This document shows positions 955 through 13,698 of a DNA stretch of 54,510 nt, one piece after another. Source of the stretch: a virus (Duplodnaviria; Caudoviricetes). The number at the start of each line of letters is the position of its first letter. The first letter of the stretch is position 1. The stretch spans positions 1 through 54,510 of IMG/VR virus record IMGVR_UViG_3300036770_001615; one strand, written 5' to 3'. A program made the translations under genes and the position numbers. The notes under the pieces were generated by a model. The model was not told the DNA's origin, did no database searches, and saw nothing but the letters and a program-made list of their open reading frames with translations.

Positions 955-956
955 AA

Positions 957-1118: not shown

Positions 1119-1127
1119 CATTTCTAT

Positions 1128-1203: not shown

Positions 1204-1208
1204 AATAT

Positions 1209-1284: not shown

Positions 1285-1297
1285 AATACAATTTAAC

Positions 1298-1550: not shown

Positions 1551-1556
1551 AAATTT

Positions 1557-1633
1557 GCCCTGGTGATGGAACAGGTATACGTGTCTGACTCAAAATCAGA
1601 ATTTTGTGGGTTCGAATCCCACCTAGGGCACCA
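1557..1633 (+). tRNA. tRNA-Leu(CAA), short variable loop
   Basis: TCTGA-CTCAAAA-TCAGA, 5-nt V loop, CCA. Confidence 0.9.
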
Positions 1634-1634
1634 C

Positions 1635-1663
1635 TTGACATTAATCACGATATCAAGTAGAAT
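1635..1663 (+). promoter_or_regulatory. sigma70 promoter
   Basis: TTGACA-17-TAGAAT. Confidence 0.85.
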
Positions 1664-1672
1664 ACATTTAAT

Positions 1673-1747
1673 TGGGGATTCGCCAAGCGGTAAGGCATCG
1701 GATTTTGATTCCGACATTCCCAGGTTCGATCCCTGGATCCCCAGCCA
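1673..1747 (+). tRNA. tRNA-Gln(TTG)
   Basis: T1:A72, TTTTGAT loop, CCA. Confidence 0.95.
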
Positions 1748-1760
1748 AAGGAGATATATC

Positions 1761-1940
1761 ATGAAAACAGTAACATTTGAAAGTGTATATAATAAAGAGA
1801 AGTTTACCTGTAACGGTAAGTCCTTGCAGGATGTTAGAGTTATTGATGGTATAGAATACCTACGTGTCTTTAAGTTCGGGACACACCGTGAGGTATTAGT
1901 TCGTAAAGATACTCTAAAAAGGGTATCTAACAAACGGTGA
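1761..1940 (+). CDS. Hypothetical protein (59 aa)
   Basis: AAGGAG SD before ATG 1761. Confidence 0.7.
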   Translation: MKTVTFESVYNKEKFTCNGKSLQDVRVIDGIEYLRVFKFGTHREVLVRKDTLKRVSNKR

Positions 1941-1966
1941 TTAAATAAAAGAAGATAGGAGTTATC

Positions 1967-2530
1967 ATGGCTGTTTTGGCATTGGACATCTCAGGAATTC
2001 CTAGGCAATGGATTTCCTTTGATGACGCTATTGTGTATCATGCAAAGGAACTTGTTGCATGGAGTCTTGGAGATGTAGTAGCAAGGTATCGTGGTGGAAT
2101 TCAAAACGACGGTACTGAAAGTTATTTAGAAACCCCAAGCATTATTGCAATTAGAGGTCATGGATTTGACCCTGCGCGGCACAATAGAGTTAGTCTAACC
2201 AATCGAACATTGTTCGGTCGAGACAGGCATGTTTGTGCATACTGCGGAGGTCACTTCCCTAACTATCATCACCTAAGTCGAGACCACATCATGCCTAAAA
2301 GCAAGGGTGGTACCGATACTTGGATGAACGTTGTGACCGCTTGTAAGGAATGCAACGGTAAAAAAGGTAATAAGACATTGAAGGAAGCACGTATGGAACT
2401 GATTTACGTACCCTACGTGCCCAATCATTATGAAAATATGATTCTACAAAACCGCACGATTCTTGCGGATCAAATGGAGTACTTGCTAGCAGGTGTTCCA
2501 AAACATAGTAGAATTTTAAAAATGTCTTGA
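1967..2530 (+). CDS. HNH endonuclease (McrA-like)
   Basis: RDRHVCAYCG..DHIMPKSKGG...NVVTACKECNGKK. Confidence 0.9.
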   Translation: MAVLALDISGIPRQWISFDDAIVYHAKELVAWSLGDVVARYRGGIQNDGTESYLETPSIIAIRGHGFDPARHNRVSLTNRTLFGRDRHVCAYCGGHFPNYHHLSRDHIMPKSKGGTDTWMNVVTACKECNGKKGNKTLKEARMELIYVPYVPNHYENMILQNRTILADQMEYLLAGVPKHSRILKMS

Positions 2531-2570
2531 CAATAAACTATTTATCCTGTATACTACGGGGTAAATAGTT
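2527..2570 (+). promoter_or_regulatory. sigma70 promoter with overlapping hairpin and TAAATA
   Basis: TTGACA-17-TATACT. Inverted repeat 2536-2550/2556-2570. Confidence 0.8.
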
Positions 2571-2579
2571 ATGAATTAT

Positions 2580-2655
<76 letters not shown>

Positions 2656-2666
2656 ATTTAAAATAT

Positions 2667-2742
2667 GCTGGCTTAGCTCAGTTGGTAGAGCATCTGCCTT
2701 GTAAGCAGGAGGTCGTCAGTTCGAATCCGACAGTCAGCACCA
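2667..2742 (+). tRNA. tRNA-Thr(TGT)
   Basis: CTTGTAA loop, CCA. Confidence 0.95.
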
Positions 2743-2766
2743 TACAACACACAGGAGTTACAGTGT

Positions 2767-3003
2767 ATGAAGAAGTTAGTTATTGTAGGATTGTTTGCCA
2801 TTTCTGCTAATGCAATGGCCGTTGATAGAGTTTTAAAGTTTGATACGGATTTAGATGGCAAAGTTTCATACAAGGAACTTACTTTATCATGCGATGTTTC
2901 AAAAAGTTTATTTGACCGAGCAGATAAAGATGGCGATGGGTATTTGACAAACGTAGAAATGCGTACTGCAAAGAATTACCTATTCGTTACTTGCAGTAAG
3001 TAA
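2767..3003 (+). CDS. Secreted EF-hand protein
   Basis: Signal peptide (..ANAMA); Ca-binding loops DTDLDGKVSYKE and DKDGDGYLTNVE. Confidence 0.8.
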   Translation: MKKLVIVGLFAISANAMAVDRVLKFDTDLDGKVSYKELTLSCDVSKSLFDRADKDGDGYLTNVEMRTAKNYLFVTCSK

Positions 3004-3010
3004 GAATTAT

Positions 3011-3087
3011 CTGCCCGTAGCTCAGTTGGATAGAGCAATGGCCTTCTAAGCCATCGGTCGGACGTTCGAATCGTCTCGGGCAGGCCA
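3011..3087 (+). tRNA. tRNA-Arg(TCT)
   Basis: ATGGC-CTTCTAA-GCCAT, CCA. Confidence 0.95.
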
Positions 3088-3097
3088 AATTGGAGAT

Positions 3098-3607
3098 ATG
3101 ATGGATATAACTGATTATGTAATTGAATTACCCTTCTTAAAATATGATAAGCAGGCATTAATTGATTACATGAAAGGTAAGGGTCCTTGGGTCAGTGAAG
3201 GATATGCTAATAAGTATCTACGACCTAAAGACAGTATAGACCTATTTTCAGATATCTATAAACAGATCCCTGAATTTGAAATTGACATTGGAAGAGTATT
3301 TTTTGCTGAATTAGAACCGTTTCAGTTTTTGCATCCACATAAGGATTTATATAGAAAAGCATCTATAAACATTCCTTTGATTGGGGATTTCACAAAAACG
3401 CCGGTTACCTTTTATAGTGAGAAATCTACCAAAAAAGAACACATTTTGTATAAACATTGCTATAATGATGTTGCAACAGTAATTAATACTGAAGTATATC
3501 ATGGAGTAGTAAATACAACGAATGAAATTAGATATATATTTTGTTTGAGTGTATATCCTGATTGGAATACAATTAAACAAGTATATGAAAAGTATAACGG
3601 GGTGTAG
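3098..3607 (+). CDS. Cupin/2OG-Fe(II) oxygenase-like protein
   Basis: HxD (HKD) ... H (YHGV) ... R. The stop lies inside tRNA-Pro. Confidence 0.7.
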   Translation: MMDITDYVIELPFLKYDKQALIDYMKGKGPWVSEGYANKYLRPKDSIDLFSDIYKQIPEFEIDIGRVFFAELEPFQFLHPHKDLYRKASINIPLIGDFTKTPVTFYSEKSTKKEHILYKHCYNDVATVINTEVYHGVVNTTNEIRYIFCLSVYPDWNTIKQVYEKYNGV

Positions 3608-3675
3608 CGCAGTCTGGTTAGCGCATCTGCTTTGGGAGCAGAGGGTCGTGAGTTCGAATCCCACCACCCCGACCA
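3598..3675 (+). tRNA. tRNA-Pro(TGG)
   Basis: TCTGC-TTTGGGA-GCAGA, CCA. Confidence 0.95.
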
Positions 3676-3680
3676 TTATT

Positions 3681-3755
3681 GGAAGTTTAGCTCAGCGGTA
3701 GAGCAACGCCCTTACAAGGCGAAGGTCATAGGTTCAATCCCTATAACTTCCACCA
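3681..3755 (+). tRNA. tRNA-Val(TAC)
   Basis: CTTACAA loop, CCA. Confidence 0.95.
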
Positions 3756-3839
3756 ATTCTTTGATTGTCACAAAAATTTAATACAATTTTTTACAGGTAA
3801 TAATAAATACGAATATTATAATACATAAAAGGTAGCGAC

Positions 3840-4274
3840 ATGTTAAACATTATCAATAGTATCAATGATCCGCTACTAAGTTACATCAAAGATGATCCAG
3901 TGAGACCCGAAATTCCTGTAGAGTTTCGGGTTTCTAATTTTAGATTTGTTGGCGCCTTAGTAGAGGATAAACCACAAGCAATAGTTTGCGTAAGCCTACA
4001 TGACTTTATACCCGAATCAGTAGAAGATTTATCTAGAGAATCAGTATCTCCTGATACAGCAATCTTCTATACGATTTGGAGTTATAAAGCAGGAGCGGCT
4101 AAAGATTTGCTATTCTCTACAGTTAAAGAGATCCAACGTATGTTTCCTAACATCACACGTTTTGTAACACTAAGTCCTAAGACTGAAATGGCAAAACGAT
4201 TCCATTTGCGTAATGGAGCGTCGGTGTTGAAGGAAAATCTCACAACGGTGAATTACGAATATAAAGTCAGTTGA
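3840..4274 (+). CDS. Hypothetical protein, possible GNAT-like fold
   Basis: AIFYTIWSYKAGA...FVTLSP..A..FHLRNGA. TAAATA at 3804. Confidence 0.6.
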   Translation: MLNIINSINDPLLSYIKDDPVRPEIPVEFRVSNFRFVGALVEDKPQAIVCVSLHDFIPESVEDLSRESVSPDTAIFYTIWSYKAGAAKDLLFSTVKEIQRMFPNITRFVTLSPKTEMAKRFHLRNGASVLKENLTTVNYEYKVS

Positions 4275-4299
4275 CAAATATTCCTAGTTCGTATATAAT
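4271..4299 (+). promoter_or_regulatory. Consensus sigma70 promoter
   Basis: TTGACA-17-TATAAT. Confidence 0.9.
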
Positions 4300-4316
4300 A
4301 CATTCTTTCTCGCAGT

Positions 4317-4391
4317 ATCTCGGTGGTGTCAACGGCAGCATGACGGTCTCCAAAACCGCTGGTGGGGGTTCGAATCCCTCCCGGGATGCCA
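4317..4391 (+). tRNA. tRNA-Trp(CCA)
   Basis: CTCCAAA loop, CCA. Confidence 0.93.
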
Positions 4392-4404
4392 AAAACTGAT
4401 TGTA

Positions 4405-4452
4405 AATCAAGTACTTACGAGGCTTGACAAATAATCAGAGTTGTAGTAGAAT
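4405..4452 (+). promoter_or_regulatory. IHF site plus sigma70 promoter
   Basis: AATCAAGTACTTA (WATCAANNNNTTR), then TTGACA-17-TAGAAT. Confidence 0.8.
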
Positions 4453-4461
4453 GCTTATATT

Positions 4462-4491
4462 CGCTGAGAAATCAGCAACGTTCTTTAAAAA
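4462..4491 (+). promoter_or_regulatory. rrn-type boxB-boxA antitermination signal, copy 1
   Basis: GCTGA-GAAA-TCAGC hairpin plus GTTCTTTAAAAA; identical 30 bp at 7654. Confidence 0.75.
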
Positions 4492-4509
4492 CTGAAGTGA
4501 AAATTTTTT

Positions 4510-4596
4510 GCCCGGGTGGTGAAATAGGTAGACACAAGAGACTTAAAATCTCTCGCCCGAAAGGGCGTGCCGGTTCGATTCCGGCCCCGGGCACCA
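4510..4596 (+). tRNA. tRNA-Leu(TAA)
   Basis: CTTAAAA loop, long V arm, CCA. Confidence 0.95.
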
Positions 4597-4743
4597 TATA
4601 AAAGTGTTATCAAGGTATCGTGTATGGACGCATACACTATTCGGGTCCAATCGGCCGGAGACGGATCCTGAGATAACTGCATCGGCTTTGTCAAGTTAGC
4701 TACTTTACGACTAAATTTGCACGATAGCACTTTTATATGGTGT
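4591..4743 (+). ncRNA. Stem-closed RNA cassette B
   Basis: GCACCATATAAAAGTGTTATC / GATAGCACTTTTATATGGTGT. Internal hairpins GTGTATG/CATACAC and GGGTCC/GGATCC. Confidence 0.65.
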
Positions 4744-4751
4744 TATAAAAA

Positions 4752-4845
4752 AAGGGGGAGTGGCGGCTATGTCTCAACGTCATGGTCATCGCCTTTGTGT
4801 TTACTCTTAAACAACAGCATATCCTCATTCGTAGGTGTGCCCCTT
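4752..4845 (+). ncRNA. Possible small structured RNA
   Basis: Two imperfect hairpins (GGCGGCTATG/CATGGTCATCGCC; GCATATCCT/AGGTGTGC) in a GC-richer spacer with no ORF. Confidence 0.35.
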
Positions 4846-4852
4846 ATCAATT

Positions 4853-4929
4853 GCCTCTGTAGCTCAATTGGTTAGAGCAGTGGACTCATAATCCATTGGT
4901 TACAGGTTCGAGTCCTGTCGGAGGCACCA
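4853..4929 (+). tRNA. tRNA(CAT), probably Ile2 (lysidine type)
   Basis: GTGGA-CTCATAA-TCCAT, Ile2-like body; separate Met and fMet genes are present. Confidence 0.85.
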
Positions 4930-4934
4930 TTTTT

Positions 4935-5025
4935 GGAAGTGTGGCAGAGTTGGTTTAATGCACTAGTCTTGAAAACTAGCGATTCAGCAATGGGTCCGTG
5001 AGTTCGAATCTCACCGCTTCCACCA
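4935..5025 (+). tRNA. tRNA-Ser(TGA)
   Basis: CTTGAAA loop, long V arm, CCA. Confidence 0.95.
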
Positions 5026-5031
5026 GTATTA

Positions 5032-5123
5032 GGAGAGGTGCCCGAGAGGCCGAAGGGAGCGGTTTGCTAAACCGTCGACTCACGAAAGTGGGTCCGTGGG
5101 TTCGAATCCCACTCTCTCCACCA
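5032..5123 (+). tRNA. tRNA-Ser(GCT)
   Basis: TTGCTAA loop, long V arm, CCA. Confidence 0.95.
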
Positions 5124-5138
5124 GTTTAAGGAAATGTA

Positions 5139-5507
5139 ATGTTAAAACAATTTTACATTGATGACAGTTATATCACTGATGTTACTGTAAGGACTGAACA
5201 TGATTTTATTAAAGATCGTAGTAATCCTACACACGATGACCTAATAAAAATCCTTAAAGGATATGACAGAGGTCTTAGTATTAGTAACAAAGACCATGAT
5301 GAGTTTACAAAATTGCGTAATCAACTTGAAGAATTGGGTTATATTGTAACTCAGCGTGGTTGGTGGAACGGTGATAGAGTATTGAAGTCATTCAAGTTAA
5401 ATGAGTGGACATTTAGAAAGAATCATAAGTTTCCTAGTGCGGCGGCAATGCGTACAAGTATTGACTGTGCTAGGAAGTTTGGATGGAAAAGTATTAGTAA
5501 TTTATAA
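5139..5507 (+). CDS. Hypothetical protein
   Basis: 122-aa ORF with AAGGA SD between tRNAs. Confidence 0.7.
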   Translation: MLKQFYIDDSYITDVTVRTEHDFIKDRSNPTHDDLIKILKGYDRGLSISNKDHDEFTKLRNQLEELGYIVTQRGWWNGDRVLKSFKLNEWTFRKNHKFPSAAAMRTSIDCARKFGWKSISNL

Positions 5508-5508
5508 T

Positions 5509-5586
5509 GTATCGGTGGCAGAGTGGTCAAATGCAACGGATTGCAAATCCGTAAAGTCGTCAGTTCGAATCTGACTCGGTACTCCA
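5509..5586 (+). tRNA. tRNA-Cys(GCA)
   Basis: TTGCAAA loop, U73, CCA. Confidence 0.95.
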
Positions 5587-5592
5587 AACATT

Positions 5593-5667
5593 GCCTGTTT
5601 AGCTCAGTGGTAGAGCAACGTCTTGATAAGGCGTAGGTCCGTGGATCGTTCCCACGAACAGGCACCA
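5593..5667 (+). tRNA. tRNA-Ile(GAT), atypical T-loop
   Basis: TTGATAA loop, T-loop ATCGTTC, CCA. Confidence 0.9.
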
Positions 5668-5675
5668 AATAAGGC

Positions 5676-5704
5676 TTGACAAATAAATCAAGTTAGTATA
5701 GAAT
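5676..5704 (+). promoter_or_regulatory. sigma70 promoter
   Basis: TTGACA-17-TAGAAT. Confidence 0.85.
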
Positions 5705-5717
5705 ACATGTATTGATT

Positions 5718-5813
5718 AGGAGATATGACATGAAACGAGGTAAACGCTAGTGTCATCTTAGTTCCAATGTACGAACTAAGGTGGCACGTTAAACAAACTT
5801 AGTACAAACATTG
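5718..5813 (+). other. SD + micro-ORF MKRGKR-amber followed by a 15-bp hairpin/pseudoknot
   Basis: AGGAG 5718, ATG 5730, TAG 5748-5750. Stem 5750-5764/5773-5787; loop CAATGT complements ACATTG at 5808-5813. Confidence 0.5.
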
Positions 5814-5888
5814 GGACGTTAGCTCAGTTGGTAGAGCAGTAGACTTTTAATCTATTGGTCGTGGGTTCGAACCCCGCACGTCCTACCA
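5813..5888 (+). tRNA. tRNA-Lys(TTT)
   Basis: GTAGA-CTTTTAA-TCTAT, CCA. Confidence 0.95.
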
Positions 5889-6127
5889 TATTAAAGTATA
5901 TTGAAGGTTACTCACACCGTTAGGGGTGAACGAAGGCTGATTACGAGCCGGATACCCATGAAGCAGGAGGGACTTAGAGTATGGCGAGACACCATTGAGC
6001 CAAAGGGTAAAGTCTAATTTAAACTCCAGGGATGCGACGGGTTAAACAGTGGGGAATAATGAGAAAGCAACACGATATGTGGTGTTGAGTGTTAGCGGTA
6101 CTTCCTTTAGTATATTTTAATATGGTA
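5884..6127 (+). ncRNA. Stem-closed RNA cassette C (~196-nt cargo)
   Basis: 24-bp stem 5884-5907/6104-6127 with 3 G-U pairs; several internal hairpins. Confidence 0.7.
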
Positions 6128-6131
6128 TAAT

Positions 6132-6206
6132 AGTAGAGTAGCATAACGGTAGTGCAACACCTTCATACGGTGCGCTGTGTGGGTTCGACTCCCTCCTCTA
6201 CTACCA
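6132..6206 (+). tRNA. tRNA-Met(CAT), elongator
   Basis: TTCATAC loop, paired 1:72, CCA. Confidence 0.88.
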
Positions 6207-6217
6207 AAAGATTTTTT

Positions 6218-6292
6218 GCTCGGTTCGTCTATTGGTTAGGACGCTGGCCTTTCACGCCGGAAAGAGGGGTTCAATTCCCCTACCGAGTACCA
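6218..6292 (+). tRNA. tRNA-Glu(TTC)
   Basis: CTTTCAC loop, CCA. Confidence 0.95.
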
Positions 6293-6298
6293 AACAAT

Positions 6299-6386
6299 GG
6301 GTGTTGCCCCTGCCGGCGGACTGTAAATCCGTTACTCTGAGAGGTAGGAAGTCGAGTTCGTGGAGCGTTACCATCAACACCCACCA
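6299..6386 (+). tRNA. Non-canonical tRNA-Tyr(GTA): 8-bp acceptor, 4-bp T stem, no D arm
   Basis: GGGTGTTG/CAACACCC plus A-CCA; GCGGA-CTGTAAA-TCCGT; GTGG-AGCGTTA-CCAT. Confidence 0.75.
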
Positions 6387-6438
6387 AACACACAAAAGAG
6401 ATAAATATATCTCTTTTGACACAGAGAGGAAACAGAGT

Positions 6439-6525
6439 ATGGAATTTGTAGGAATGAACATCCTAGCCGTATTAGTTATGTCACTAGTGATTATCATTAG
6501 TGATATAGTTAACTTGCTAGATTAA
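6439..6525 (+). CDS. Small hydrophobic peptide (28 aa)
   Basis: GAGGA SD, single TM segment, TAAATA hairpin upstream. Confidence 0.5.
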   Translation: MEFVGMNILAVLVMSLVIIISDIVNLLD

Positions 6526-6531
6526 GAATAA

Positions 6532-6608
6532 GGCCCGTTAGCGCAGTTGGTTAGCGCACATGCCTGTCACGCATGAGGTCACCGGTTCGAGCCCGGTACG
6601 GGTCGCCA
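6532..6608 (+). tRNA. tRNA-Asp(GTC)
   Basis: CATGC-CTGTCAC-GCATG, CCA. Confidence 0.95.
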
Positions 6609-6681
6609 ATAAAAACTAGTTCTTTACTGTCTATTAGACACTAAATATTAGTGTCTGAAATAAGGCATAAAGGAGAAAACA

Positions 6682-6840
6682 ATGGATATGGACGTTATAG
6701 TTCCCATAGTTATAGTTTTAGTAGTAGCCGGATTCTTCTTTTGGAAGAAAAAAGGCAATAGTGCTGATGCACCAGTTGATGGTGAAAATGTCGGTGGTGG
6801 TGGGAAACCCACTGATACTAAAAATCAGCAATTGAAATAA
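6682..6840 (+). CDS. Small membrane protein (52 aa)
   Basis: AAGGAG SD; MDMDVIVPIVIVLVVAGFFFWKKKG... (not in ORF track). Confidence 0.7.
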   Translation: MDMDVIVPIVIVLVVAGFFFWKKKGNSADAPVDGENVGGGGKPTDTKNQQLK

Positions 6841-6843
6841 GCA

Positions 6844-7048
6844 GACCCCGGTTTACACTTTTACGTTATATAAAGTGGGCAATTGTCGTAGCCATACGGA
6901 CACGGTAAGATTGTTATAGACCGCAAGGCTCACTATATGGGCGACTTGAGACACACAATCGGGCAGAAGCAAAACTGACCTAGATGCAAATGTTGACGGA
7001 CAGGGTAACAACTCAGTTCGGGGCTAAATGGGATTAGTGGCCGAACAT
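6844..7048 (+). ncRNA. Structured RNA (~200 nt), unknown family
   Basis: Non-coding, GC-richer. CCCCGG/TCGGGG ends, CACTTT/AAAGTG, GATTGT/ACAATC, TATAG-ACC-GCAA-GG..CTATA hairpins. Confidence 0.6.
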
Positions 7049-7061
7049 TTTAATATTACAC

Positions 7062-7601
7062 ATGAAACTTAACGACTACATTTTTGTTAGCAAACTTTTT
7101 GATTCACAAGAATGCGATGAAATAATAAACAAAACCAATCAGTATAAATGGCGCCAACATAAATGGAATGCCTCTAATACAAAGGTTAAGTCAGTAGAGG
7201 AAATCGATAACATTCTAGTATGTAATATTGATCCTTTACTTGAAAGTAAAATATCTCCTAAGTTATTGAACGTATTTGGAAAATATAGTATCCTATTTGG
7301 ACCACATAGTGTTCCAATTCAGTTGACTAATCAATGGGATAATATTAGAATAAACAAATATACAGAAGGTGTCGGTATGAGAAATCATATTGATCACGGT
7401 ATAGATAGGGAACATCCTGTACTTACAATCATTGCGTTATTGAATGACGAATTCACAGGTGGTAATACTTTTATCTTAAATGAGGAAGTATTGCTTAAGA
7501 AAGGTGACTGTGTTATCTTTCCTAGTAATTTTATGTATCCACATGAAATTAAACCTGTAGTGAATGGTACAAGATATTCACTAACTACTTGGGCTTATTA
7601 A
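7062..7601 (+). CDS. 2OG-Fe(II) oxygenase (prolyl-4-hydroxylase-like)
   Basis: HIDH...FTGG...FPSNFMYPHEIKPV..GTRYS. Confidence 0.9.
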   Translation: MKLNDYIFVSKLFDSQECDEIINKTNQYKWRQHKWNASNTKVKSVEEIDNILVCNIDPLLESKISPKLLNVFGKYSILFGPHSVPIQLTNQWDNIRINKYTEGVGMRNHIDHGIDREHPVLTIIALLNDEFTGGNTFILNEEVLLKKGDCVIFPSNFMYPHEIKPVVNGTRYSLTTWAY

Positions 7602-7612
7602 CCCAAAACTGT

Positions 7613-7641
7613 TTGACAAAAAATCAAAAGTAATATACAAT
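7613..7641 (+). promoter_or_regulatory. sigma70 promoter of the ncRNA operon
   Basis: TTGACA-17-TACAAT. Confidence 0.85.
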
Positions 7642-7653
7642 ACGTTGTATTGA

Positions 7654-7683
7654 CGCTGAGAAATCAGCAACGTTCTTTAAAAA
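7654..7683 (+). promoter_or_regulatory. rrn-type boxB-boxA signal, copy 2
   Basis: Identical to 4462-4491. Confidence 0.75.
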
Positions 7684-7698
7684 TTATTAGTATAAAGG

Positions 7699-7930
7699 GA
7701 AGTCTTTATACACATGACAATTAAATGTCAGCAAATGAAAGTCACTATTGTTAGTAGCCGGCCAGCCAAAGCAATAGTAAGCAGTGGGGGGCGCAAAACC
7801 CTAGCAAAACCTAGACACACTGGATGAGTAACTGAAGTGACGTACCGAGTCCTGCCCGGGTTTAATTACACAGGTGAATGGTGCTAATAACGATGGTAGC
7901 ACATTTTAGTTGTCAGTTGTATAAAGATTT
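7699..7930 (+). ncRNA. ~230-nt self-closed structured RNA or domain
   Basis: GAAGTCTTTATAC..TGACAATTAAA pairs with TTTAGTTGTCA..GTATAAAGATTTC; internal hairpins. Confidence 0.65.
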
Positions 7931-7934
7931 CAAA

Positions 7935-8805
7935 GATTGGGGGCATAGCCTCGTTAGAATAAGTGTAGCGATACACCCAAAGCAGAATCCGCCTACAGGA
8001 CTGCACCAGCAATGGTTCATCTATGCAAGCCTGCTCACACCCGTGAGGGTGCGATCACTGATAAGACCGGTGGTTGTAACAATGAAGCAAGTGTGTTGGA
8101 AAGAATGTCTGTTTAAGTCCCCGCAAGGGTAAGACAGGCAGACAGAGAGTAACAGGTGGTGCTGACCTCAACACAAAACCAACTTGTCAATTGGTATGAG
8201 AAAGGGTAGTATATATTGTCCGAAGGGTCGCTCCTAAGGGCGTGTATGCAGTATGAGTGGTTAATGGGTATTGATTACGGGTCAATATACATAAATCGCA
8301 AAATACGTCTGAGTAGTCCGCGAGACAAAAGGAACGTGGTGTGTTGTATTATGTAATCCAAAAGATTATGTAGCAACTGAGGCAGCACATCATAGTAGGT
8401 TCAGTTATAGCACAACGGTAGTGCAACTCCATTTATCCAGGAGTCGGCTGAAGGTTCAAATCCTTCTAACGATTATAAAAACGCAAAGTCTGCCTCGGTT
8501 GTATGTGAAAAGCATCTAACTCTCAGGCCGCAAGGTAACTGAGACTGACGTAACTCGCAAGGTGAAATCAGTTTATGCTAGAAGATTCGTAACGGTTTAG
8601 CGACTGTGAATGGCTCGCAAGGTCAACGGGTAATAAAGCGTAGAGTAGCATATAACGTCAAGTCTACTGCATGACTTTAAACTGCGATGCTGGTAATAGA
8701 CGTAGATACCGCAAGGGTTTACGTGGATATCGGAAGAAAGTATTCTCGCAAGGAATACAATAATGTCCGAGGTATTACTGGCTAACGTGTAATCTCAGCG
8801 TTAGC
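7935..8805 (+). ncRNA. Large ornate RNA, GOLLD-like (boundaries approximate)
   Basis: ~870 nt with no credible ORF; dense GNRA-capped hairpins (CGCAAGG x6); terminal GCTAACG-TGTAATCTCAG-CGTTAGC hairpin; phage tRNA-array context. Confidence 0.75.
8401..8473 (+). ncRNA. tRNA-like domain embedded in the GOLLD-like RNA
   Basis: D arm GCAC-AACGGTA-GTGC, ACTCC-(9-nt loop)-GGAGT, T arm GAAGG-TTCAAAT-CCTTC; no CCA. Confidence 0.75.
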
Positions 8806-8806
8806 A

Positions 8807-8872
8807 TTATTCTAAAACACATTCGCAACCACAAGGTAGTGAAATGTACGAGGGGAGTGTGTTTTAGAATAA
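8807..8872 (+). ncRNA. Stem-closed RNA cassette D
   Basis: TTATTCTAAAACACATTC / GAGTGTGTTTTAGAATAA; shares AAAACACATTC/GAGTGTGTTT with cassette A. Confidence 0.6.
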
Positions 8873-8880
8873 AAAGTTTT

Positions 8881-9140
8881 GGTAGTAGCCGTAAGGTGAA
8901 CTACCCGGAGACAAGAAAGAGATTAGGACTGACGAAACTTATTATTGGACTTTTTATCCAATAATGATCAATACGGCAATACGTCTTGAAAAACGTATCG
9001 TGCTTATGTGATCTAGTCTAAACGGTTTTATCTAACCTTCTTGTACTTTGCTGACTAGGAATATGTAGGCCTCTGTGCTTTGTTAAATGTCACTTGCAGG
9101 TTGCATATTGTAATGTTGGTTACTTACTTTTTTGGCTCCG
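8881..9140 (+). ncRNA. Structured RNA with 7-nt periodic repeats
   Basis: Several hairpins; CGGAG/CTCCG closing pair; TG at 9074, 9081, 9088, 9095, 9102, 9109. Confidence 0.6.
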
Positions 9141-9170
9141 TCACTATTCATTAACATAAAAGGTATTAAA

Positions 9171-9734
9171 ATGGAAATCACACTTCGTAAAGCAAATGCA
9201 CTTCAAAACAACATCAACGATATGTTGAAGTCAATTCAGGTTGCTGATTCAGTTAACCTTAACGAGTTCCAAGATGCAGAAGCCGTAATTGGAACTAAAG
9301 CAGTAGAGGCTACAAAACAATTTCAGCGCCAAGTGGCACTCACCAAAGCATTGTACGATATTCGTACAGAAGTGGCTAATGCTAACCACTTCTCACGTAT
9401 CACAACCATGTTGACTCAAGTTGCAGAACTTGAAAAGTTGATTGGTTTCAATCAAAAAATGGCAGAGCGTAAAGTTCGCCTAGAGGCTGGGGTCATTCGT
9501 GGCAAGTTGGACAAAATTCGCACTGAGGGTCGTTCATTGATCTATGATCGTTACAATGAAATAGAAACTGGACTAACCACTGAAGCAGAGGTTCAGTCAT
9601 ACAAGGATACTGTGGCAAAACTTAAGCGTGAGAAGCAGGCTTTGCAGGATCAAATCTTAGAAGCCAACGTTGGCACTAAGGTAAATCTTAGCGAAACTAC
9701 TGCAAATGTATTGCGTACTGAAGGTTTGCTATAA
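9171..9734 (+). CDS. Alpha-helical coiled-coil protein (DIP1984/DUF6847-like architecture)
   Basis: MEITLRKANALQ...IRTEVANAN...LQDQILEANVGTKV. AAGG SD. Family assignment is inference. Confidence 0.65.
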   Translation: MEITLRKANALQNNINDMLKSIQVADSVNLNEFQDAEAVIGTKAVEATKQFQRQVALTKALYDIRTEVANANHFSRITTMLTQVAELEKLIGFNQKMAERKVRLEAGVIRGKLDKIRTEGRSLIYDRYNEIETGLTTEAEVQSYKDTVAKLKREKQALQDQILEANVGTKVNLSETTANVLRTEGLL

Positions 9735-9741
9735 ATAATAT

Positions 9742-9816
9742 CGTGGGGTGGAGAAGAGGAAACTCACCAGTCTCATAAGCTGGAGATCGCAGGTTCGAGT
9801 CCTGCCCCCGCAACCA
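9742..9816 (+). tRNA. tRNA-fMet-like (CAT)
   Basis: C1xA72 mismatch, CTCATAA loop, CCA; lacks the 3 G-C anticodon-stem pairs. Confidence 0.85.
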
Positions 9817-9817
9817 G

Positions 9818-9892
9818 TCCCACGTAGTTCAAAGGATAGAATAAGACACTCCTAAGGTCAAGATATCAGTTCGATTCTGGTCGTGGGAGCCA
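9818..9892 (+). tRNA. tRNA-Arg(CCT), weak anticodon stem
   Basis: TCCCACG/CGTGGGA, CTCCTAA loop, A20; only 3 WC pairs in the anticodon stem. Confidence 0.75.
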
Positions 9893-9900
9893 AAGTATAT

Positions 9901-9978
9901 GCGGGTAGATTGTGGCAAGGGGCGCCCAGCAGTCTTCCAAACTGATAATGCGGAGTTCGACTCTCCCTACCCGCTCCA
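9901..9978 (+). tRNA. tRNA-Gly(TCC), atypical D region
   Basis: GCGGGTA/TACCCGC, U73, CTTCCAA loop; extra nt before the D stem. Confidence 0.8.
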
Positions 9979-9999
9979 TTTCATGTTGATAAATAAAAC

Positions 10000-10614
10000 A
10001 TGGTAAATTATTTTCATAAAATCAATAAGTTTTATATTGATCATAAAAAATTATATGATGAATGGTACAGTGTGGCTACTAAACATGATATGTTTGAGAG
10101 GACACACCACTTTGTATCCCGCAGAACGTTAGACTATTCACCTTCTATTCCCGTATATTATAAATTATTGATTAATTACCCTACATCAATGGATCAAAAC
10201 ATTGATCCAGTATGGTTAGATAGATCGGAAGATAACGACACTGGTAATGATACTACTTTTTCAATCGACAACATCAATATAAATTTTAAAAATTCATATA
10301 CTGAAACTGTAGTAAAACATATAGATAAGTTTATAACGTCGAAATACAAATCATATAAAACAACAGTAGTAAAATATGCGGTGTTAAGACCTAATTCACT
10401 TATTAATACTCATGTAGATAAAAGGTCTATACCTAGATTTTTCTTAACCGTAAACGCCCCTCAGGGATGTTTTATGGAAGTATGTGGTGATAGGCATTCA
10501 TTAAGTGATACGGGAGCATTATTTAAAATGATATGTAATGCACCGCATAGTCCTATTAACGAAAGTGATCAATTTCGTGTTATGATAATTTTTGATGTTG
10601 CTCCCGCAACATAA
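10000..10614 (+). CDS. Asp/Asn beta-hydroxylase-like oxygenase
   Basis: LRPNSLINTHVD...PHSPINESDQFRVMIIFD. Confidence 0.7.
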   Translation: MVNYFHKINKFYIDHKKLYDEWYSVATKHDMFERTHHFVSRRTLDYSPSIPVYYKLLINYPTSMDQNIDPVWLDRSEDNDTGNDTTFSIDNININFKNSYTETVVKHIDKFITSKYKSYKTTVVKYAVLRPNSLINTHVDKRSIPRFFLTVNAPQGCFMEVCGDRHSLSDTGALFKMICNAPHSPINESDQFRVMIIFDVAPAT

Positions 10615-10628
10615 ATATTACAGAATAC

Positions 10629-10704
10629 GGGCCTGTAGCTCAGTTGGGAGAGCGCCAGCTTTGCAAGCTGGATGTCGCAAGTTCGATCCTTGTCAGGTCC
10701 ACCA
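10629..10704 (+). tRNA. tRNA-Ala(TGC), second copy
   Basis: G3:U70, TTTGCAA loop, CCA. Confidence 0.95.
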
Positions 10705-10710
10705 ATTTTT

Positions 10711-11046
10711 ATGAATATTGAATACAGTATTTTAAATGCTTTGTCATTAGTAGAAATTTATAAACAATATTCTATTCCATGGCTTGATATAACGGATGAT
10801 CCATTATTAAACATAAAATCTTTTCCTAAAGATATAAAGTTTCTAGCAATAGAACAACTGGATAAAGTTCAAATGATATATCAGGATAGATTAGATAAAA
10901 CACAAGAGCAATTAATCACAAACATTAGAAAAGAGTTATGTGAACACATAGATTATTGTGATCCAAGAGCAATAAAGTTTGCGATGTTGTCACTGGATAA
11001 TGATTCCGAGTTATATAATATTTTAGAGCAATACAATACGCTATAA
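10711..11046 (+). CDS. Hypothetical protein
   Basis: ATG 10711 after the tRNA. Confidence 0.55.
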   Translation: MNIEYSILNALSLVEIYKQYSIPWLDITDDPLLNIKSFPKDIKFLAIEQLDKVQMIYQDRLDKTQEQLITNIRKELCEHIDYCDPRAIKFAMLSLDNDSELYNILEQYNTL

Positions 11047-11068
11047 ATATTTCTAAAGGAGTTCACAT

Positions 11069-11200
11069 ATGGCAAAAAGCGCAGGATCTAAGATCAATTC
11101 AGTTGTTAAAAGAACAAAGCAAGGCGGCAAAGTAAAGACTAGTAGCCTTAATAAAACTGAAAAACGTAACTTTAAAAAGTATCGAGGTCAAGGTAAGTGA
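11069..11200 (+). CDS. Small basic protein ending KKYRGQGK (43 aa)
   Basis: TATAAATA 11042, AAGGAG SD; motif common in T4-like phages. Confidence 0.7.
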   Translation: MAKSAGSKINSVVKRTKQGGKVKTSSLNKTEKRNFKKYRGQGK

Positions 11201-11397
11201 GCGACGGTGGTAAGGGTAGCAGTCCTCGCCCATTTAGTGTAGATAGAAAAACTTTTGAAAACAATTGGGATGCTATCTTTGCTAAGAAAAAAGAGGAATC
11301 AACAGAACAAAGCGGGTATAATTCAGGGGTAGAATGTTTGCTTGCCAAGCAAAATGTCGTCGGTTCGAATCCGACTACCCGCTCCAATGATAGATGA
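11197..11397 (+). CDS. Small protein (GKGSxPRP..NWDAIF) whose frame runs through tRNA-Gly
   Basis: GTGA overlap with the upstream stop, ATGA overlap with the downstream start. Confidence 0.6.
   Translation: MSDGGKGSSPRPFSVDRKTFENNWDAIFAKKKEESTEQSGYNSGVECLLAKQNVVGSNPTTRSNDR
11312..11386 (+). tRNA. tRNA-Gly(GCC)
   Basis: TTTGC-TTGCCAA-GCAAA, U73, CCA. Confidence 0.95.
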
Positions 11398-11975
11398 ACT
11401 ATCAATCTCTGATTGAAAGAAATGTATTTTCGCTAATGGATCCATTAGCAGTTCAATGGTTAAAGAATCATTGTTCTACACTTTCATCTGGAGATATAGT
11501 AGTTGAGTTAGGCACTTTTTTAGGTGGTACTATAAAAAGTTTAGCCGAATCTAATCCAAATATTATTTTTCATACTATAGACATTAATGATGCTGAATGG
11601 TGGCATGAAAGAAATTATATCTCAAACGTAAGAAAAGTATCTGGTAATAATTTAATAAATTTTAACAAAGAAGATTATTTGAAAATTCAAGATTTGCATC
11701 TTAATCATTTAATCAATGTTGTTAGACATACGGGTTCTAGTTTAACTTTAACTATACCAAACATATCATTATTAATCAGTGATAGTTCGCATAATGAAGA
11801 ACTAACATATCAGGAACTCAATCATTTTTGGCCTCTAATTAAAAAGGGTGGATCAATAATTGGAGATGATTTTAATAATATGCCGGAAGTTAAACGTGCA
11901 TTCATCAGATTTATAAGAGAAAACAATCTATCTTATTCAAGAATTTATAGTAATCAAATAAGAATTGTAAAGTAA
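11394..11975 (+). CDS. Class I SAM-dependent methyltransferase
   Basis: VVELGTFLGGT...DSSH...GGSIIGDD. Confidence 0.8.
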   Translation: MNYQSLIERNVFSLMDPLAVQWLKNHCSTLSSGDIVVELGTFLGGTIKSLAESNPNIIFHTIDINDAEWWHERNYISNVRKVSGNNLINFNKEDYLKIQDLHLNHLINVVRHTGSSLTLTIPNISLLISDSSHNEELTYQELNHFWPLIKKGGSIIGDDFNNMPEVKRAFIRFIRENNLSYSRIYSNQIRIVK

Positions 11976-11985
11976 TAAATACTAG

Positions 11986-12471
11986 ATGCTATTCATATCG
12001 TATCGTGGTATTTTTGACGGACAAAACTTCGAAAATGAAAATACAATAAACCAAATAGGCACAGCCTTTAATGCAGGTTATTCCTGCATGGTAGATGTTT
12101 GGCGTATTGACGATAAGATATATTTAGGTAGTCAACAACCTCTAGTAGAAGTTACTGCTAGATATATACAAGGCAATCGGTTTTGGCTTAATGCTAGAAA
12201 CAACGACATGCTAATTTGGTTGCAAGCACAGCCAATCAAACTTTATCCAAATTATTTTTCAGTACCTTATCCAACGCCCGATTATGTAACTACTAGCAGT
12301 GGTCATCAATGGGTGTTTGGTAATGTGCCTACAAACAATAACAGTATTATAGTATTACCTGAGATACCTGACAGAGGGTTATTCAGCACTGTTAAGTTGC
12401 GCAACTACGGTATATGTAGTTCTTATCTTTCTTTCATTAAACGCTGGCGCAACGAAGGCGTTTGGTATTAA
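11986..12471 (+). CDS. Hypothetical protein, degenerate GDPD-like
   Basis: ISYRG...EN....A...GY...VDVW pattern. Confidence 0.55.
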   Translation: MLFISYRGIFDGQNFENENTINQIGTAFNAGYSCMVDVWRIDDKIYLGSQQPLVEVTARYIQGNRFWLNARNNDMLIWLQAQPIKLYPNYFSVPYPTPDYVTTSSGHQWVFGNVPTNNNSIIVLPEIPDRGLFSTVKLRNYGICSSYLSFIKRWRNEGVWY

Positions 12472-12917
12472 TAATCAAATCGACAGTATGCATTACTGTC
12501 ACTAGTCTCACTTGCTTCCCAATCTGAGACTAAGGTAAATCCCGCACTACGATAAGTTTTCCAACTTGTTTGTCGTGGGTAACTCCAACATAGGCTAGCC
12601 CCTTCACTACGACCCTGTTCGATAGTCGCAAGTAGCAAATCTCTGCCTATAAACAATCCCCTAAAATTTTCTTTTACATATAATCCACGTGAGCGATAAT
12701 GGTTATCTTTACACATATGACCACTGTTCACTCCTACGATATCTCCATCTAATCTATAACCAAAGAATGTAGGTTCAGTGTTCATGTTGTACATATCATA
12801 ACCACCAAGTAAACACATTGCACTATTAGTTTCAATAGCACTTGTTCTATTTGGCCAAAGTAATGTATTCCATATAGGCAATATTTCGTCAAATCTAATC
12901 TTACATATTCGTGTCAT
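12468..12917 (-). CDS. GNAT acetyltransferase
   Basis: RGLYVKENFRGLFIG...Y.SAGF. Confidence 0.8.
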   Translation of the reverse strand: MTRICKIRFDEILPIWNTLLWPNRTSAIETNSAMCLLGGYDMYNMNTEPTFFGYRLDGDIVGVNSGHMCKDNHYRSRGLYVKENFRGLFIGRDLLLATIEQGRSEGASLCWSYPRQTSWKTYRSAGFTLVSDWEASETSDSNAYCRFDY

Positions 12918-13698
12918 TCAAGTCCTCTAGTTTATATAGAAGTTTGCTCGGGTGTCCTGGTAATAGTAAATCATCAATGTGTGCCCATCTAGTAGTAAAT
13001 GCCATTCTTGGTTCTTTCTTTGTGTCATCTAAATCCATATTACAATTTACACCATGATGCACTTCATTACCATTGACACATAACCCTGTGTTTGCTGTAG
13101 GTCTATATACAAATCCACTCTCAGACCAAAATTCGCCACCTGTGTTTTCTTTTTGATTGTCTAGATAAAATGTAACGCTAACCGCCCTAGCATGACATGC
13201 ACTCTTTGTATTAAAATATTGATCATTCATATCATAATGCACACTTAAAAATCTGTCATATGATAGTATATTTGCATGCCAACGAAATGGTATCCAGCAC
13301 TTAGGATTGTCAGCAAAGGGAGGTTGCTTCTCAAAAAATTTTAAATACCTATAAAATATTGGGTTAGTGTTATGTAACAACCAATTATTTGACCAATCAT
13401 AGACTGTATCTTTAGTTTGATAGAACCACTCTGGTTCAAACGTCAAGTCATAAACAACTTGCTGTTCTCTATTATTTTGACTATGAGACACAATGTGTTT
13501 GTTTTGACCTTCAAAAACAAACGTAGTTCTATGTGTCTTGTATGTGGTAGATTTGTTTGTTTTGAATAAAACTGCTATAGCGTTCTTTAATTTATGAAAA
13601 AAAGGTTCATCAAATACATCTTTGTAAATGTATGCATGAACCTTTTTTTCGAACCAATGAACCGATGCAGTATCTTCAATATACTCAGTGACTATCAT
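12901..13698 (-). CDS. 2OG-Fe(II) oxygenase
   Basis: HYD...GGEF...HHGV...R. Confidence 0.75.
   Translation of the reverse strand: MIVTEYIEDTASVHWFEKKVHAYIYKDVFDEPFFHKLKNAIAVLFKTNKSTTYKTHRTTFVFEGQNKHIVSHSQNNREQQVVYDLTFEPEWFYQTKDTVYDWSNNWLLHNTNPIFYRYLKFFEKQPPFADNPKCWIPFRWHANILSYDRFLSVHYDMNDQYFNTKSACHARAVSVTFYLDNQKENTGGEFWSESGFVYRPTANTGLCVNGNEVHHGVNCNMDLDDTKKEPRMAFTTRWAHIDDLLLPGHPSKLLYKLEDLNDTNM

What the first reader, a model, noticed from the sequence alone, without database searches (positions are those of the whole stretch)
7935..8805. GOLLD-like giant RNA carrying an internal CCA-less tRNA domain with a 9-nt anticodon loop
Seen: six CGCAAGG tetraloop hairpins (8122, 8529, 8556, 8616, 8710, 8747) and many other stems. 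A cloverleaf at 8401-8473 has a D arm nearly identical to that of tRNA-Met 6132, but a loop ATTTATCCA and no CCA. Established: GOLLD RNAs (~800 nt) sit beside phage tRNAs, can include tRNAs in a variable linker, form RNA-only cages, and have no known function. Inference: here the tRNA shape rather than decoding is retained, suggesting a decoy, RNase P site or ribosome/synthetase docking element. The family call rests on size, context and recalled motif resemblance.
Basis: partly seen in the sequence, partly recalled or inferred. Interest (0 to 1): 0.75.

Follow-up and report, generated by a model that had tools for sequence, protein, structure and literature searches.

The report
GOLLD RNA with built-in tRNA-shaped domain
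This stretch of a giant-phage genome encodes a GOLLD RNA, a known cage-forming giant RNA of unknown function, and the linker between its two halves holds a conserved tRNA-shaped domain that looks unable to act as a normal tRNA.

Summary
Window 8336-8801 (+) matches Rfam GOLLD (RF02032) end to end: 213.6 bits against a cut-off of 150, E 4e-59. All six CGCAAGG sites are there. The cloverleaf is there, with the 9-nt loop ATTTATCCA and no CCA.

The embedded element belongs to a lineage of tRNA-like domains. I aligned 57 related GOLLDs, mostly from large phage contigs plus Sinorhizobium phage Phosso. The D, anticodon and T stems and a 4-bp acceptor stub form standard pairs in 98.9% of cells, and 17 of 18 pairs show compensatory changes. 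None of the 57 encodes CCA, and acceptor pairs 1:72 and 2:71 form no more often than the slid-partner controls. Of 800 free tRNAs in the same contigs, 779 encode CCA. The anticodon varies; 52 of 57 loops have 7 nt, and the window's 9-nt loop is unique.

Published work already reports tRNAs and one "pseudo tRNA" inside GOLLD linkers. This is a new member of a known kind, with new family-wide detail. The function remains unknown.

The parts
7613..7641 (+). Sigma-70-like promoter candidate (TTGACA, 17 nt, TACAAT; 11 of 12). It lies upstream of element E2 and the GOLLD.
   Evidence: This is a consensus match only: the region had 11 sites against 10.3 expected. Its use is inferred.
7931..8335 (+). 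GOLLD 5' domain, which the Rfam model does not cover.
   Evidence: 69 nhmmer hits in other loci. In the 45 distinct full-length hits, 5'-domain hit and 3'-domain hit abut in every locus I compared. RNAalifold on 24 sequences predicts 99 pairs, 67 with compensatory changes. The conservation profile rises at about 7925.
7992..7996 (+). Hairpin-loop bases CCUAC, complementary to GUAGG at 8395-8399. This is a candidate long-range pairing.
   Evidence: 49 rows: 44 CCUAC/GUAGG, 2 UCUAC/GUAGA, 1 UCUAU/GUAGA, 1 CCUAC/GUGGG (G-U), and Phosso CCCAG/AUGGG.
8336..8400 (+). First hairpin of the GOLLD 3' domain (Rfam model positions 1-63) plus the 5' flank of the linker, which includes the invariant GUAGGUU.
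8401..8474 (+). tRNA-like domain in the interdomain linker. The firm core is 8404-8470.
8431..8439 (+). 9-nt anticodon-type loop ATTTATCCA.
   Evidence: It is the only 9-nt loop among 57. The nearest relative, L150, has the 8-nt loop ATTTATGA.
8475..8801 (+). Rest of the GOLLD 3' domain, starting with the conserved AAAAACGCAAAG. It includes the 10-bp pseudoknot annotated in the Rfam consensus.
   Evidence: alignment.
8807..8872 (+). Long hairpin (18-bp outer stem) followed by AAAAAGUUUU. It may be the 3' end or a terminator.
   Evidence: z-score -4.19, 0 of 200 shuffles fold as well. It is less conserved than the GOLLD. Its role is inferred.

Best explanation
Window ~7931-8805 (+) encodes a full-length GOLLD RNA in the tRNA island of a jumbo phage. 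The record is 54.5 kb and is estimated to be 14% complete. By homology with the GOLLDs solved by cryo-EM, it should assemble into an RNA-only cage of 10-14 copies, with the interdomain linker (J13/15) pointing into the lumen. This step is inferred from the literature and was not tested here.

In this subfamily the linker is a conserved tRNA-shaped domain rather than a variable spacer. It has canonical D, anticodon and T arms and the usual elbow nucleotides. It joins the scaffold through a shortened acceptor stem. Its 5' flank, GUAGG, appears to pair with a loop of the 5' domain, so acceptor positions 1-3 are taken up by scaffold sequence.

It lacks a full 7-bp acceptor stem and an encoded CCA, which nearly all free tRNAs of the same phages have. 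Where the phage's tRNA set is well sampled, its anticodon is redundant with a free tRNA. Most likely it therefore stays covalently inside the GOLLD as a tethered tRNA mimic or structural domain, and is not released as a decoding tRNA.

In the window's copy the loop has grown to 9 nt, so codon reading is even less likely. What the tethered domain binds is unknown. My best guess is a tRNA-binding protein or the ribosome, held inside the cage.
For: Family membership
- GOLLD scores 213.6 bits against 150, over model 1-416.
- The 5' domain is conserved and structured.
- The conserved block is 7925-8810.
- The record is viral and 14% complete.

The domain is under selection
- Across 57 aligned homologues (54 distinct rows), 98.9% of cells form a standard pair, against 36-51% when partners are slid.
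- 17 of 18 pairs have compensatory changes.
- The covariation score is 0.730 against 0.215 in shuffles, and 0 of 500 shuffles reach it.
- The D-loop GG and the T-loop G-TTC-A-CC are invariant or nearly so.

It is not built like a tRNA gene
- Acceptor positions 7 to 1 pair in 1.00, 0.98, 1.00, 0.93, 0.67, 0.35 and 0.46 of the 57.
- Only 2 of 57 have 7 contiguous pairs, and 0 of 57 have CCA.
- Control: of 800 distinct free tRNAs in the same loci, 779 end in CCA, 676 have 7 of 7 acceptor pairs and 95 have 6 of 7.

The anticodon is redundant and unstable
- A free tRNA with the same anticodon lies in the held part of 22 of 57 sources. This holds for all 9 loci with at least 24 free tRNAs.
- The anticodon label changes at least 22 times on a backbone tree with 42 labelled rows and 13 states.
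- One scaffold (D arm GGCTAA[T/C]GGTAGGCC, stem ATTTC/GAAAT) carries TTT, TCT or GTT.

It is its own lineage
- Median identity is 0.92 to the nearest other embedded domain and 0.66 to the best free tRNA of the same locus.
- That best free tRNA shares the anticodon in 4 of 54 cases.

Anchoring
- The loop-linker complementarity has compensated variants.

The domain stays in the RNA
- Contigs from RNA libraries bridge the whole domain with both flanks. These are X16 record 7 (8372-8526, 1 difference) and X15 record 2 (8024-8652, 41 differences).

Literature
- The linker faces the cage interior and sometimes holds tRNAs (Kretsch et al., passages).
- In a Mycobacterium GOLLD, a northern blot did not detect expression of the internal 'pseudo tRNA' (Behra et al. 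2019, passages).
Against: - There are no end-mapping data. Contigs cannot show RNA ends, and an RNA library can hold DNA.
- ARAGORN calls the embedded element a tRNA in 56 of 73 related loci.
- 52 of 57 loops keep 7 nt, with T33 in 51 of 52, T36 in 50 of 52 and A37 in 50 of 52 (my tally of the output). A mere spacer would not need this.
- 12 of 57 have 6-7 contiguous acceptor pairs.
- CCA can in principle be added after transcription.
- A published review proposes 'inhibited storage' of a releasable tRNA.
- Cage assembly and the inward position of the linker are carried over from other GOLLDs. They were not shown for this subfamily.
Confidence: 0.8

Rival explanations
1. The embedded element is a working tRNA gene stored inside the GOLLD. 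When the cage opens, RNase P and 3' processing release it, CCA is added, and it decodes. This is the 'inhibited storage' idea.
For: - The idea is proposed in a review for a Mycolicibacterium GOLLD with tRNA-Phe in J13/15 (passages).
- 52 of 57 loops are canonical 7-nt loops with U33 and A37.
- ARAGORN of 73.
- Rfam tRNA scores reach 60.6 bits (L149), 54.1 (Phosso) and 51.2 (L162), each over the full model 1-71.
Against: - 0 of 57 have CCA, against 779 of 800 free tRNAs.
- Acceptor pairs 1:72 and 2:71 form in 46% and 35%, in the range of the slid-partner controls, 36-51%.
- The anticodon is duplicated by a free tRNA in all 9 well-sampled loci.
- The anticodon switches on an otherwise unchanged scaffold.
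- The window's own loop has 9 nt.
- The 5' strand of the would-be acceptor stem is the invariant scaffold motif GGUU.
- In Mycobacterium a northern blot found no product.
Confidence: 0.08
2. The element is a decaying relic of a tRNA gene that once landed in the variable linker. It has no role of its own, and the 9-nt loop is one more step of decay.
For: - The window's loop (9 nt) and that of its sister L150 (8 nt) have left the canonical form.
- One clade (L007, L089, L009, with the similar L090) has replaced the domain with a short hairpin, so the GOLLD can do without it.
- Thirty more distant GOLLDs show no tRNA call.
Against: - A relic would not keep 98.9% pairing with compensatory changes in 17 of 18 pairs across 54 distinct sequences.
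- A relic would not keep invariant elbow nucleotides.
- The domain sits at one fixed site with conserved flanks in all 57.
Confidence: 0.07
3. The region is not a GOLLD but another large structured RNA, such as a group I or II intron, ROOL, or a new class.
For: None found.
Against: GOLLD was the only family other than tRNA to reach its gathering score in the window. No intron or ROOL hit appeared at E<=1 in 5500-12000.
Confidence: 0.01

Closest known systems
GOLLD RNA (Rfam RF02032), including env-38 GOLLD (14-mer cage) and Streptococcus agalactiae GOLLD (10-12-mers) solved by cryo-EM
   Same: Full match to the 3'-domain model. It has a separate structured 5' domain, a total of about 870 nt, a phage origin and a position inside a tRNA island. 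The linker lies between the two domains.
   Different: In the solved env-38 RNA the linker is described as variable and unresolved. Here it is a conserved, covarying tRNA-shaped domain. Assembly of this subfamily has not been tested.
Mycobacterial GOLLDs with an internal tRNA. These are the 'pseudo tRNA gene' of M. aubagnense (Behra 2019) and the tRNA-Phe in J13/15 of a Mycolicibacterium GOLLD (Morgado 2020, as cited by a 2026 review).
   Same: A tRNA-like gene sits inside the GOLLD linker, within a horizontally moving tRNA array that also holds an HNH endonuclease. The window has one at 1967-2530. No separate product was seen on a northern blot.
   Different: I could not read Morgado 2020 or the supplements, so I cannot compare acceptor stems or CCA. 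The anticodons here are mostly GTT, TTT, CTT and TCT, not Phe. The carriers are uncultured jumbo-phage contigs.
Sinorhizobium phage Phosso (PV764938), unannotated GOLLD at 33533-34001
   Same: It belongs to the same subfamily: 186.6 bits, a tRNA-like domain at the same site with loop CUUCUAA, no CCA and a poorly paired acceptor top. It is the only cultured phage in the collection with a match.
   Different: About 70% identity over 234 bases. It has a 7-nt loop. A clear intrinsic terminator follows its GOLLD.
tRNA-like domains built into larger RNAs, such as the tmRNA tRNA-like domain and the 3' tRNA-like structures of plant RNA viruses (recalled, not tested here)
   Same: A tRNA shape is used as a module of a larger RNA.
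   Different: Those elements sit at an RNA end, carry or gain CCA and are aminoacylated. This one is internal, has no CCA, and has a scaffold motif in place of the acceptor top.

Membership tests
GOLLD RNA (RF02032) | Covariance-model score at or above the curated gathering score (150 bits) over the conserved 3' domain | tested here: met
   213.6 bits, E 4.3e-59, model 1-416 of 416, window 8336-8801 +. The own-genome search gave the same score.
GOLLD RNA (RF02032) | A second, less conserved but structured 5' domain, giving a total of about 800 nt or more | tested here: met
   Conserved block about 7925-8810. The 5' domain has 99 predicted pairs, 67 with compensatory changes, in 24 sequences.
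GOLLD RNA (RF02032) | Carried by a phage or prophage, often in or beside tRNA clusters | tested here: met
   The record is viral. There are 28 other tRNA genes at 370-11386 on the same strand.
GOLLD RNA (RF02032) | Self-assembly into a closed multimeric RNA cage | not testable with these tools
   Known for env-38 and S. agalactiae GOLLDs. Inferred here by homology only.
GOLLD RNA (RF02032) | It is made as RNA | tested here: inconclusive
   Contigs from 4 RNA-library runs of 3 studies lie on 7976-8823 at 90% likeness or more. Contigs cannot prove transcription or show ends.
tRNA (RF00005), for the embedded element | Cloverleaf with D, anticodon and T arms and the elbow nucleotides (G18 G19, T54 T55 C56, A58) | tested here: met
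   for the window. for conservation and covariation in 57 homologues.
tRNA (RF00005), for the embedded element | Seven-base-pair acceptor stem | tested here: not met
   The window has 4 contiguous pairs, and Rfam aligns model positions 4-67 only. In the family, positions 1 and 2 pair in 46% and 35%, and 2 of 57 have 7 pairs. Among free tRNAs, 771 of 800 have at least 6 of 7.
tRNA (RF00005), for the embedded element | Seven-nucleotide anticodon loop | tested here: not met
   The window has 9 nt, ATTTATCCA. In the family, 52 of 57 have 7 nt, 4 have 8 and 1 has 9.
tRNA (RF00005), for the embedded element | 3' CCA, which is encoded in the tRNA genes of these phages | tested here: not met
   0 of 57 embedded domains against 779 of 800 free tRNAs.
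tRNA (RF00005), for the embedded element | Processing to about 75 nt, aminoacylation and decoding | not testable with these tools
   No raw-read RNA runs were offered. Only contigs were available.

The most novel reading that the evidence does not exclude
In this jumbo-phage subfamily the GOLLD cage may be a display case for up to 14 tethered, non-releasable tRNA mimics. These would bind or trap a tRNA-directed factor inside the lumen. The boldest version is a decoy or sponge for host anticodon-loop nucleases.

The wobble base is the most variable loop position, while C32, U33, U36, A37 and A38 are held. Of the 52 seven-nt loops, 34 carry GUU, UUU or UGU. These are the anticodons of the three E. 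coli tRNAs reported as targets of the PARIS nuclease AriB (abstract and two sections read).

Against this reading, the embedded loops are followed by A or G at position 39, not the U of the reported UAAU motif. I have no host or defence data.
Probability: 0.1. Interest if true: 0.85.

Novelty: new member of a known kind. Interest (0 to 1): 0.4.

Why it matters
GOLLD is one of the largest bacterial and phage non-coding RNAs. Its cage structure was solved in 2025, but its function is still unknown.

In a large environmental subfamily, the lumen-facing linker turns out to be a selected tRNA-shaped domain, stripped of the features needed for release. That narrows the hypotheses to a tethered tRNA mimic rather than tRNA storage.

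It also points to a tractable system. Sinorhizobium phage Phosso carries the same architecture and has a cultured host.

The window's own copy, with its 9-nt loop, is a natural variant. It suggests that codon reading is not what selection maintains.

Tried and rejected
1. Partner for the anticodon inside the GOLLD. I computed mutual information and Watson-Crick complementarity between N34 or N35 and every column of a 49-row full-length alignment, using the 37 rows with 7-nt loops. The best Watson-Crick fraction for N34 was 0.59, and the best MI was 0.51 of 1.48 bits. No specifier-like partner was found.

2. Recent copying from the phage's own tRNA genes. Rejected: median identity to the best free tRNA is 0.66, and that tRNA shares the anticodon in 4 of 54 cases.

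3. Host hints from genomes. The 21-nt pattern hit 6 MAG contigs, three of them labelled Polaromonas. Only L162, a contig of a Pyrinomonadaceae MAG, is a GOLLD by Rfam. No host can be named.

4. RNA cover. The laid RNA-library contigs left 7600-7963 and most of 8848-9130 uncovered, and they stop near 7976 and 8823 with loose ends. I draw no ends from this.

5. Joints. The joints 8401>8477 and 8401>8479 (X17, X19) skip exactly the tRNA-like domain, but 'between' is not known. A loose end in X16 at 8478 reads like another T arm. I therefore read the joints as relatives with a diverged domain, not as excision.

6. Single-sequence folding of 8396-8480. It gives the D, anticodon and T hairpins, but z is only -1.67. 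The support comes from covariation, not from energy.

7. Rows dropped before counts.
- 34 of 156 held records had no nhmmer profile hit and were dropped.
- Partial hits were dropped.
- Four hairpin-type GOLLDs and the weak L117 were left out of alignment A1.
- 30 distant 'group B' GOLLDs were only scanned with ARAGORN, with 0 of 30 calls.

8. Papers. Weinberg 2009 and Morgado 2020 are not held. Supplements were closed. Either may already describe the acceptor stem or the loop-linker pairing. The searches 'GOLLD' + 'acceptor stem' (0 papers), 'GOLLD' with 'pseudo tRNA', 'embedded tRNA' or 'tRNA mimic', and 'GOLLD' + 'jumbo phage' found no such description in the held library.

9. Tools not used. 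I did not use complex prediction, structure prediction, fold search or the protein homology searches, because the question concerns an RNA.

Full report
WHAT IS THERE

The window is a 54.5-kb viral record that CheckV rates 14% complete, so it is a fragment of a jumbo phage. It carries 28 ordinary tRNA genes on the + strand between 370 and 11386.

Rfam's GOLLD model (RF02032) matches 8336-8801 (+) over its full length, 1-416. The score is 213.6 bits against a gathering score of 150, with E 4.3e-59. No family other than tRNA reached its gathering score. A permissive scan of 5500-12000 added nothing relevant.

The window has 11 in total against 2.45 expected, and 0 of 100 shuffles reached 11.

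The cloverleaf is also present. It has a D arm, an anticodon stem closing the 9-nt loop ATTTATCCA (8431-8439) and a T arm. Only four acceptor pairs form, and no CCA follows. Rfam's tRNA model aligns only its positions 4-67, at 42.3 bits.

EXTENT

The Rfam model covers only the 3' domain. I collected relatives with two pattern scans of IMG/VR:
- One search gave 43 stretches.

A profile search in the script box followed. Of 156 held records, 122 had a hit and 34 had none.

An alignment of 49 distinct full-length relatives shows high conservation from about 7925 to 8810 and a sharp fall on both sides.

The 5' part (7931-8335) has 69 nhmmer hits. It folds into 99 consensus pairs, 67 of them with compensatory changes, in 24 sequences. 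It is the GOLLD 5' domain.

Contigs from four RNA-library runs of three studies lie on 7976-8823 at 90% likeness or more. Two of them bridge the tRNA-like domain together with both flanks. This is compatible with an RNA that keeps the domain. Contigs show neither ends nor transcription as such.

THE EMBEDDED DOMAIN IN THE FAMILY

Of 60 distinct full-span relatives from the first search:
- 55 carry a tRNA-like element at the same linker site, between the invariant GUAGGUU and AAAAACGCAAAG.
- Four carry a short hairpin instead.
- One was too weak to use.

With the window and phage Phosso this gives alignment A1, which has 57 rows, 54 of them distinct.

For 18 pairs (a 4-bp acceptor stub, the D, anticodon and T stems):
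- 98.9% of cells form standard pairs, against 36-51% when partners are slid.
- 17 pairs show changes on both sides.
- The covariation score is 0.730, against 0.215 in shuffles. None of 500 shuffles reaches it.
- The elbow nucleotides are invariant or nearly so.

The tRNA shape is therefore under selection.

WHY IT DOES NOT LOOK LIKE A tRNA GENE

- Acceptor positions 7 to 1 pair in 100, 98, 100, 93, 67, 35 and 46% of the 57.
- Contiguous stem lengths are 1 bp (1 sequence), 3 (4), 4 (15), 5 (25), 6 (10) and 7 (2).
- None of the 57 encodes CCA.
- The 5' strand of the would-be stem is mostly GUU from the invariant scaffold motif GGUU.

As a control I took the 800 distinct free tRNAs that ARAGORN finds in the same loci. 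Of these, 779 end in CCA, 676 have 7 of 7 acceptor pairs and 95 have 6 of 7.

Loop lengths are 7 nt in 52, 8 nt in 4 and 9 nt in 1, the last being the window. The window's sister L150 (89% identical backbone) has 8 nt.

Among the 7-nt loops the anticodons are GTT 18, TTT 14, CTT 7, TCT 6 and TGT 2, plus five singletons. By position (my tally of the output):
- Position 34 is the most variable: T 24, G 19, C 8, A 1.
- Position 35 is T in 41.
- Positions 32, 33, 36, 37 and 38 are C 43, T 51, T 50, A 50 and A 51 of 52.

Other points:
- The anticodon label changes at least 22 times on a backbone tree built without the domain's columns (42 labelled rows, 13 states).
- One scaffold carries TTT, TCT or GTT.
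- A free tRNA with the same anticodon lies in the held part of 22 of 57 sources. This holds for all nine loci with 24 or more free tRNAs.
- The domains are not recent copies of free tRNAs. Median identity is 0.66 to the best free tRNA of the same locus and 0.92 to the nearest other embedded domain.
- No GOLLD column covaries with the anticodon.

ANCHORING

The bases GUAGG lie just 5' of the domain (8395-8399). They are complementary to the hairpin-loop bases CCUAC of the 5' domain (7992-7996). Of 49 rows:
- 44 have CCUAC/GUAGG.
- Three rows of the hairpin-type clade have UCUAC or UCUAU with GUAGA.
- One has a G-U variant.
- Phosso has CCCA/UGGG.

This suggests a long-range or inter-chain pairing that ties the linker's 5' flank to the 5' domain. 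It would explain why acceptor positions 1-3 are not free to pair. I could not check whether the published GOLLD models already contain this pairing.

WHAT IS ALREADY KNOWN

Kretsch et al. (bioRxiv and Nature versions, passages read):
- GOLLD env-38 forms a 14-mer cage.
- The variable linker is unresolved and points to the interior.

A 2026 review (passages) cites a Mycolicibacterium GOLLD with tRNA-Phe in J13/15 and proposes 'inhibited storage'.

Behra et al. 2019 (passages) report a 'pseudo tRNA gene' inside the M. aubagnense GOLLD, with no product detected on a northern blot.

An internal tRNA, and even a pseudo-tRNA, is therefore in print. The following details were not found in the held library:
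- family-wide covariation;
- the short acceptor stem;
- the lack of CCA compared with CCA-encoding neighbours;
- the drifting wobble base;
- the expanded loops of the window and its sister.

Weinberg 2009, Morgado 2020 and all supplements could not be read.

MECHANISM

The shown steps are GOLLD membership, the domain's conservation, and its lack of the usual processing and acceptor features.

The inferred steps are cage assembly with the domain in the lumen (by homology), retention of the domain in the mature RNA, and a role as a tethered tRNA mimic or structural module.

Which partner it binds is open. Release as a working tRNA (0.08) and neutral decay (0.07) are the main rivals.

A decoy for anticodon-loop nucleases is the boldest reading that is not excluded. 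Of 52 loops, 34 carry the anticodons of the three reported AriB targets. However, the base after A38 differs from the reported recognition motif, and nothing links these phages to such a defence.

VERDICT

The object is a new member of a known family, with a previously noted kind of insert that is here characterised across the family. Interest is moderate.

Noticed in passing
window 6845-7056 (+): Conserved non-coding element E1, about 210 nt, with a CGCAAGG loop at 6922. It has 17 nhmmer hits in other GOLLD-bearing phage contigs, at varying distances from the GOLLD. RNAalifold on 12 sequences gives 33 pairs, 19 with compensatory change, with 93.3% paired against 31-44% when slid. No Rfam hit at E<=1. 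The structure was derived from the same alignment, so the control is lenient.
   Followed up: partly
window 7722-7907 (+): Conserved non-coding element E2, about 185 nt, just upstream of the GOLLD. In other contigs it lies elsewhere, so it is a separate module. It has 18 nhmmer hits. On 13 sequences it gives 32 pairs, 19 with compensatory change, with 96.9% paired against 34-49% when slid. Most homologues carry a T-arm-like hairpin (GGGTTCGAnnCCC) that the window's copy lacks. No Rfam hit.
   Followed up: partly
window ~8870-9100 (+): Third conserved non-coding element, E3, with 11 nhmmer hits in other loci. One contig from an RNA library (X19 record 26) lies on 8899-9093 with 1 difference. 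Its structure was not analysed.
   Followed up: partly
window 6296-6388 (+): tRNA-Tyr(GUA)-like sequence. It has a 7-bp acceptor stem, an ACCA end and an anticodon arm with loop CUGUAAA, but aberrant D and T arms. Neither ARAGORN nor Rfam calls it, and the window has no other tRNA-Tyr. There are nhmmer hits in L136, L031 and L111.
   Followed up: partly
window 5889-6131 (+): Non-coding gap of 243 nt between tRNA-Lys and tRNA-Met, with a strong match in L142 (93 bits) and a weak one in L150. Not analysed further.
   Followed up: no
loci L068, L147; L135/L155, L016/L093, L037: Among the free tRNAs of related contigs, ARAGORN reports anticodon cta (amber-suppressor type) and 4-base anticodons (ttac, tacc, caca). 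These hint at stop-codon recoding or frameshift-suppressor tRNAs in these phages.
   Followed up: no
window 1967-2530 (+); 7062-7601, 10000-10614, 12901-13698: An HNH endonuclease gene lies inside the tRNA array, as reported for mycobacterial GOLLD-bearing tRNA clusters. Three 2OG-Fe(II) oxygenase or Asp/Asn hydroxylase-like genes lie around the GOLLD.
   Followed up: no
L003 (PV764938 33533-34001): The GOLLD of Sinorhizobium phage Phosso, with its embedded tRNA-like domain, has no annotated feature in the GenBank record.
   Followed up: yes
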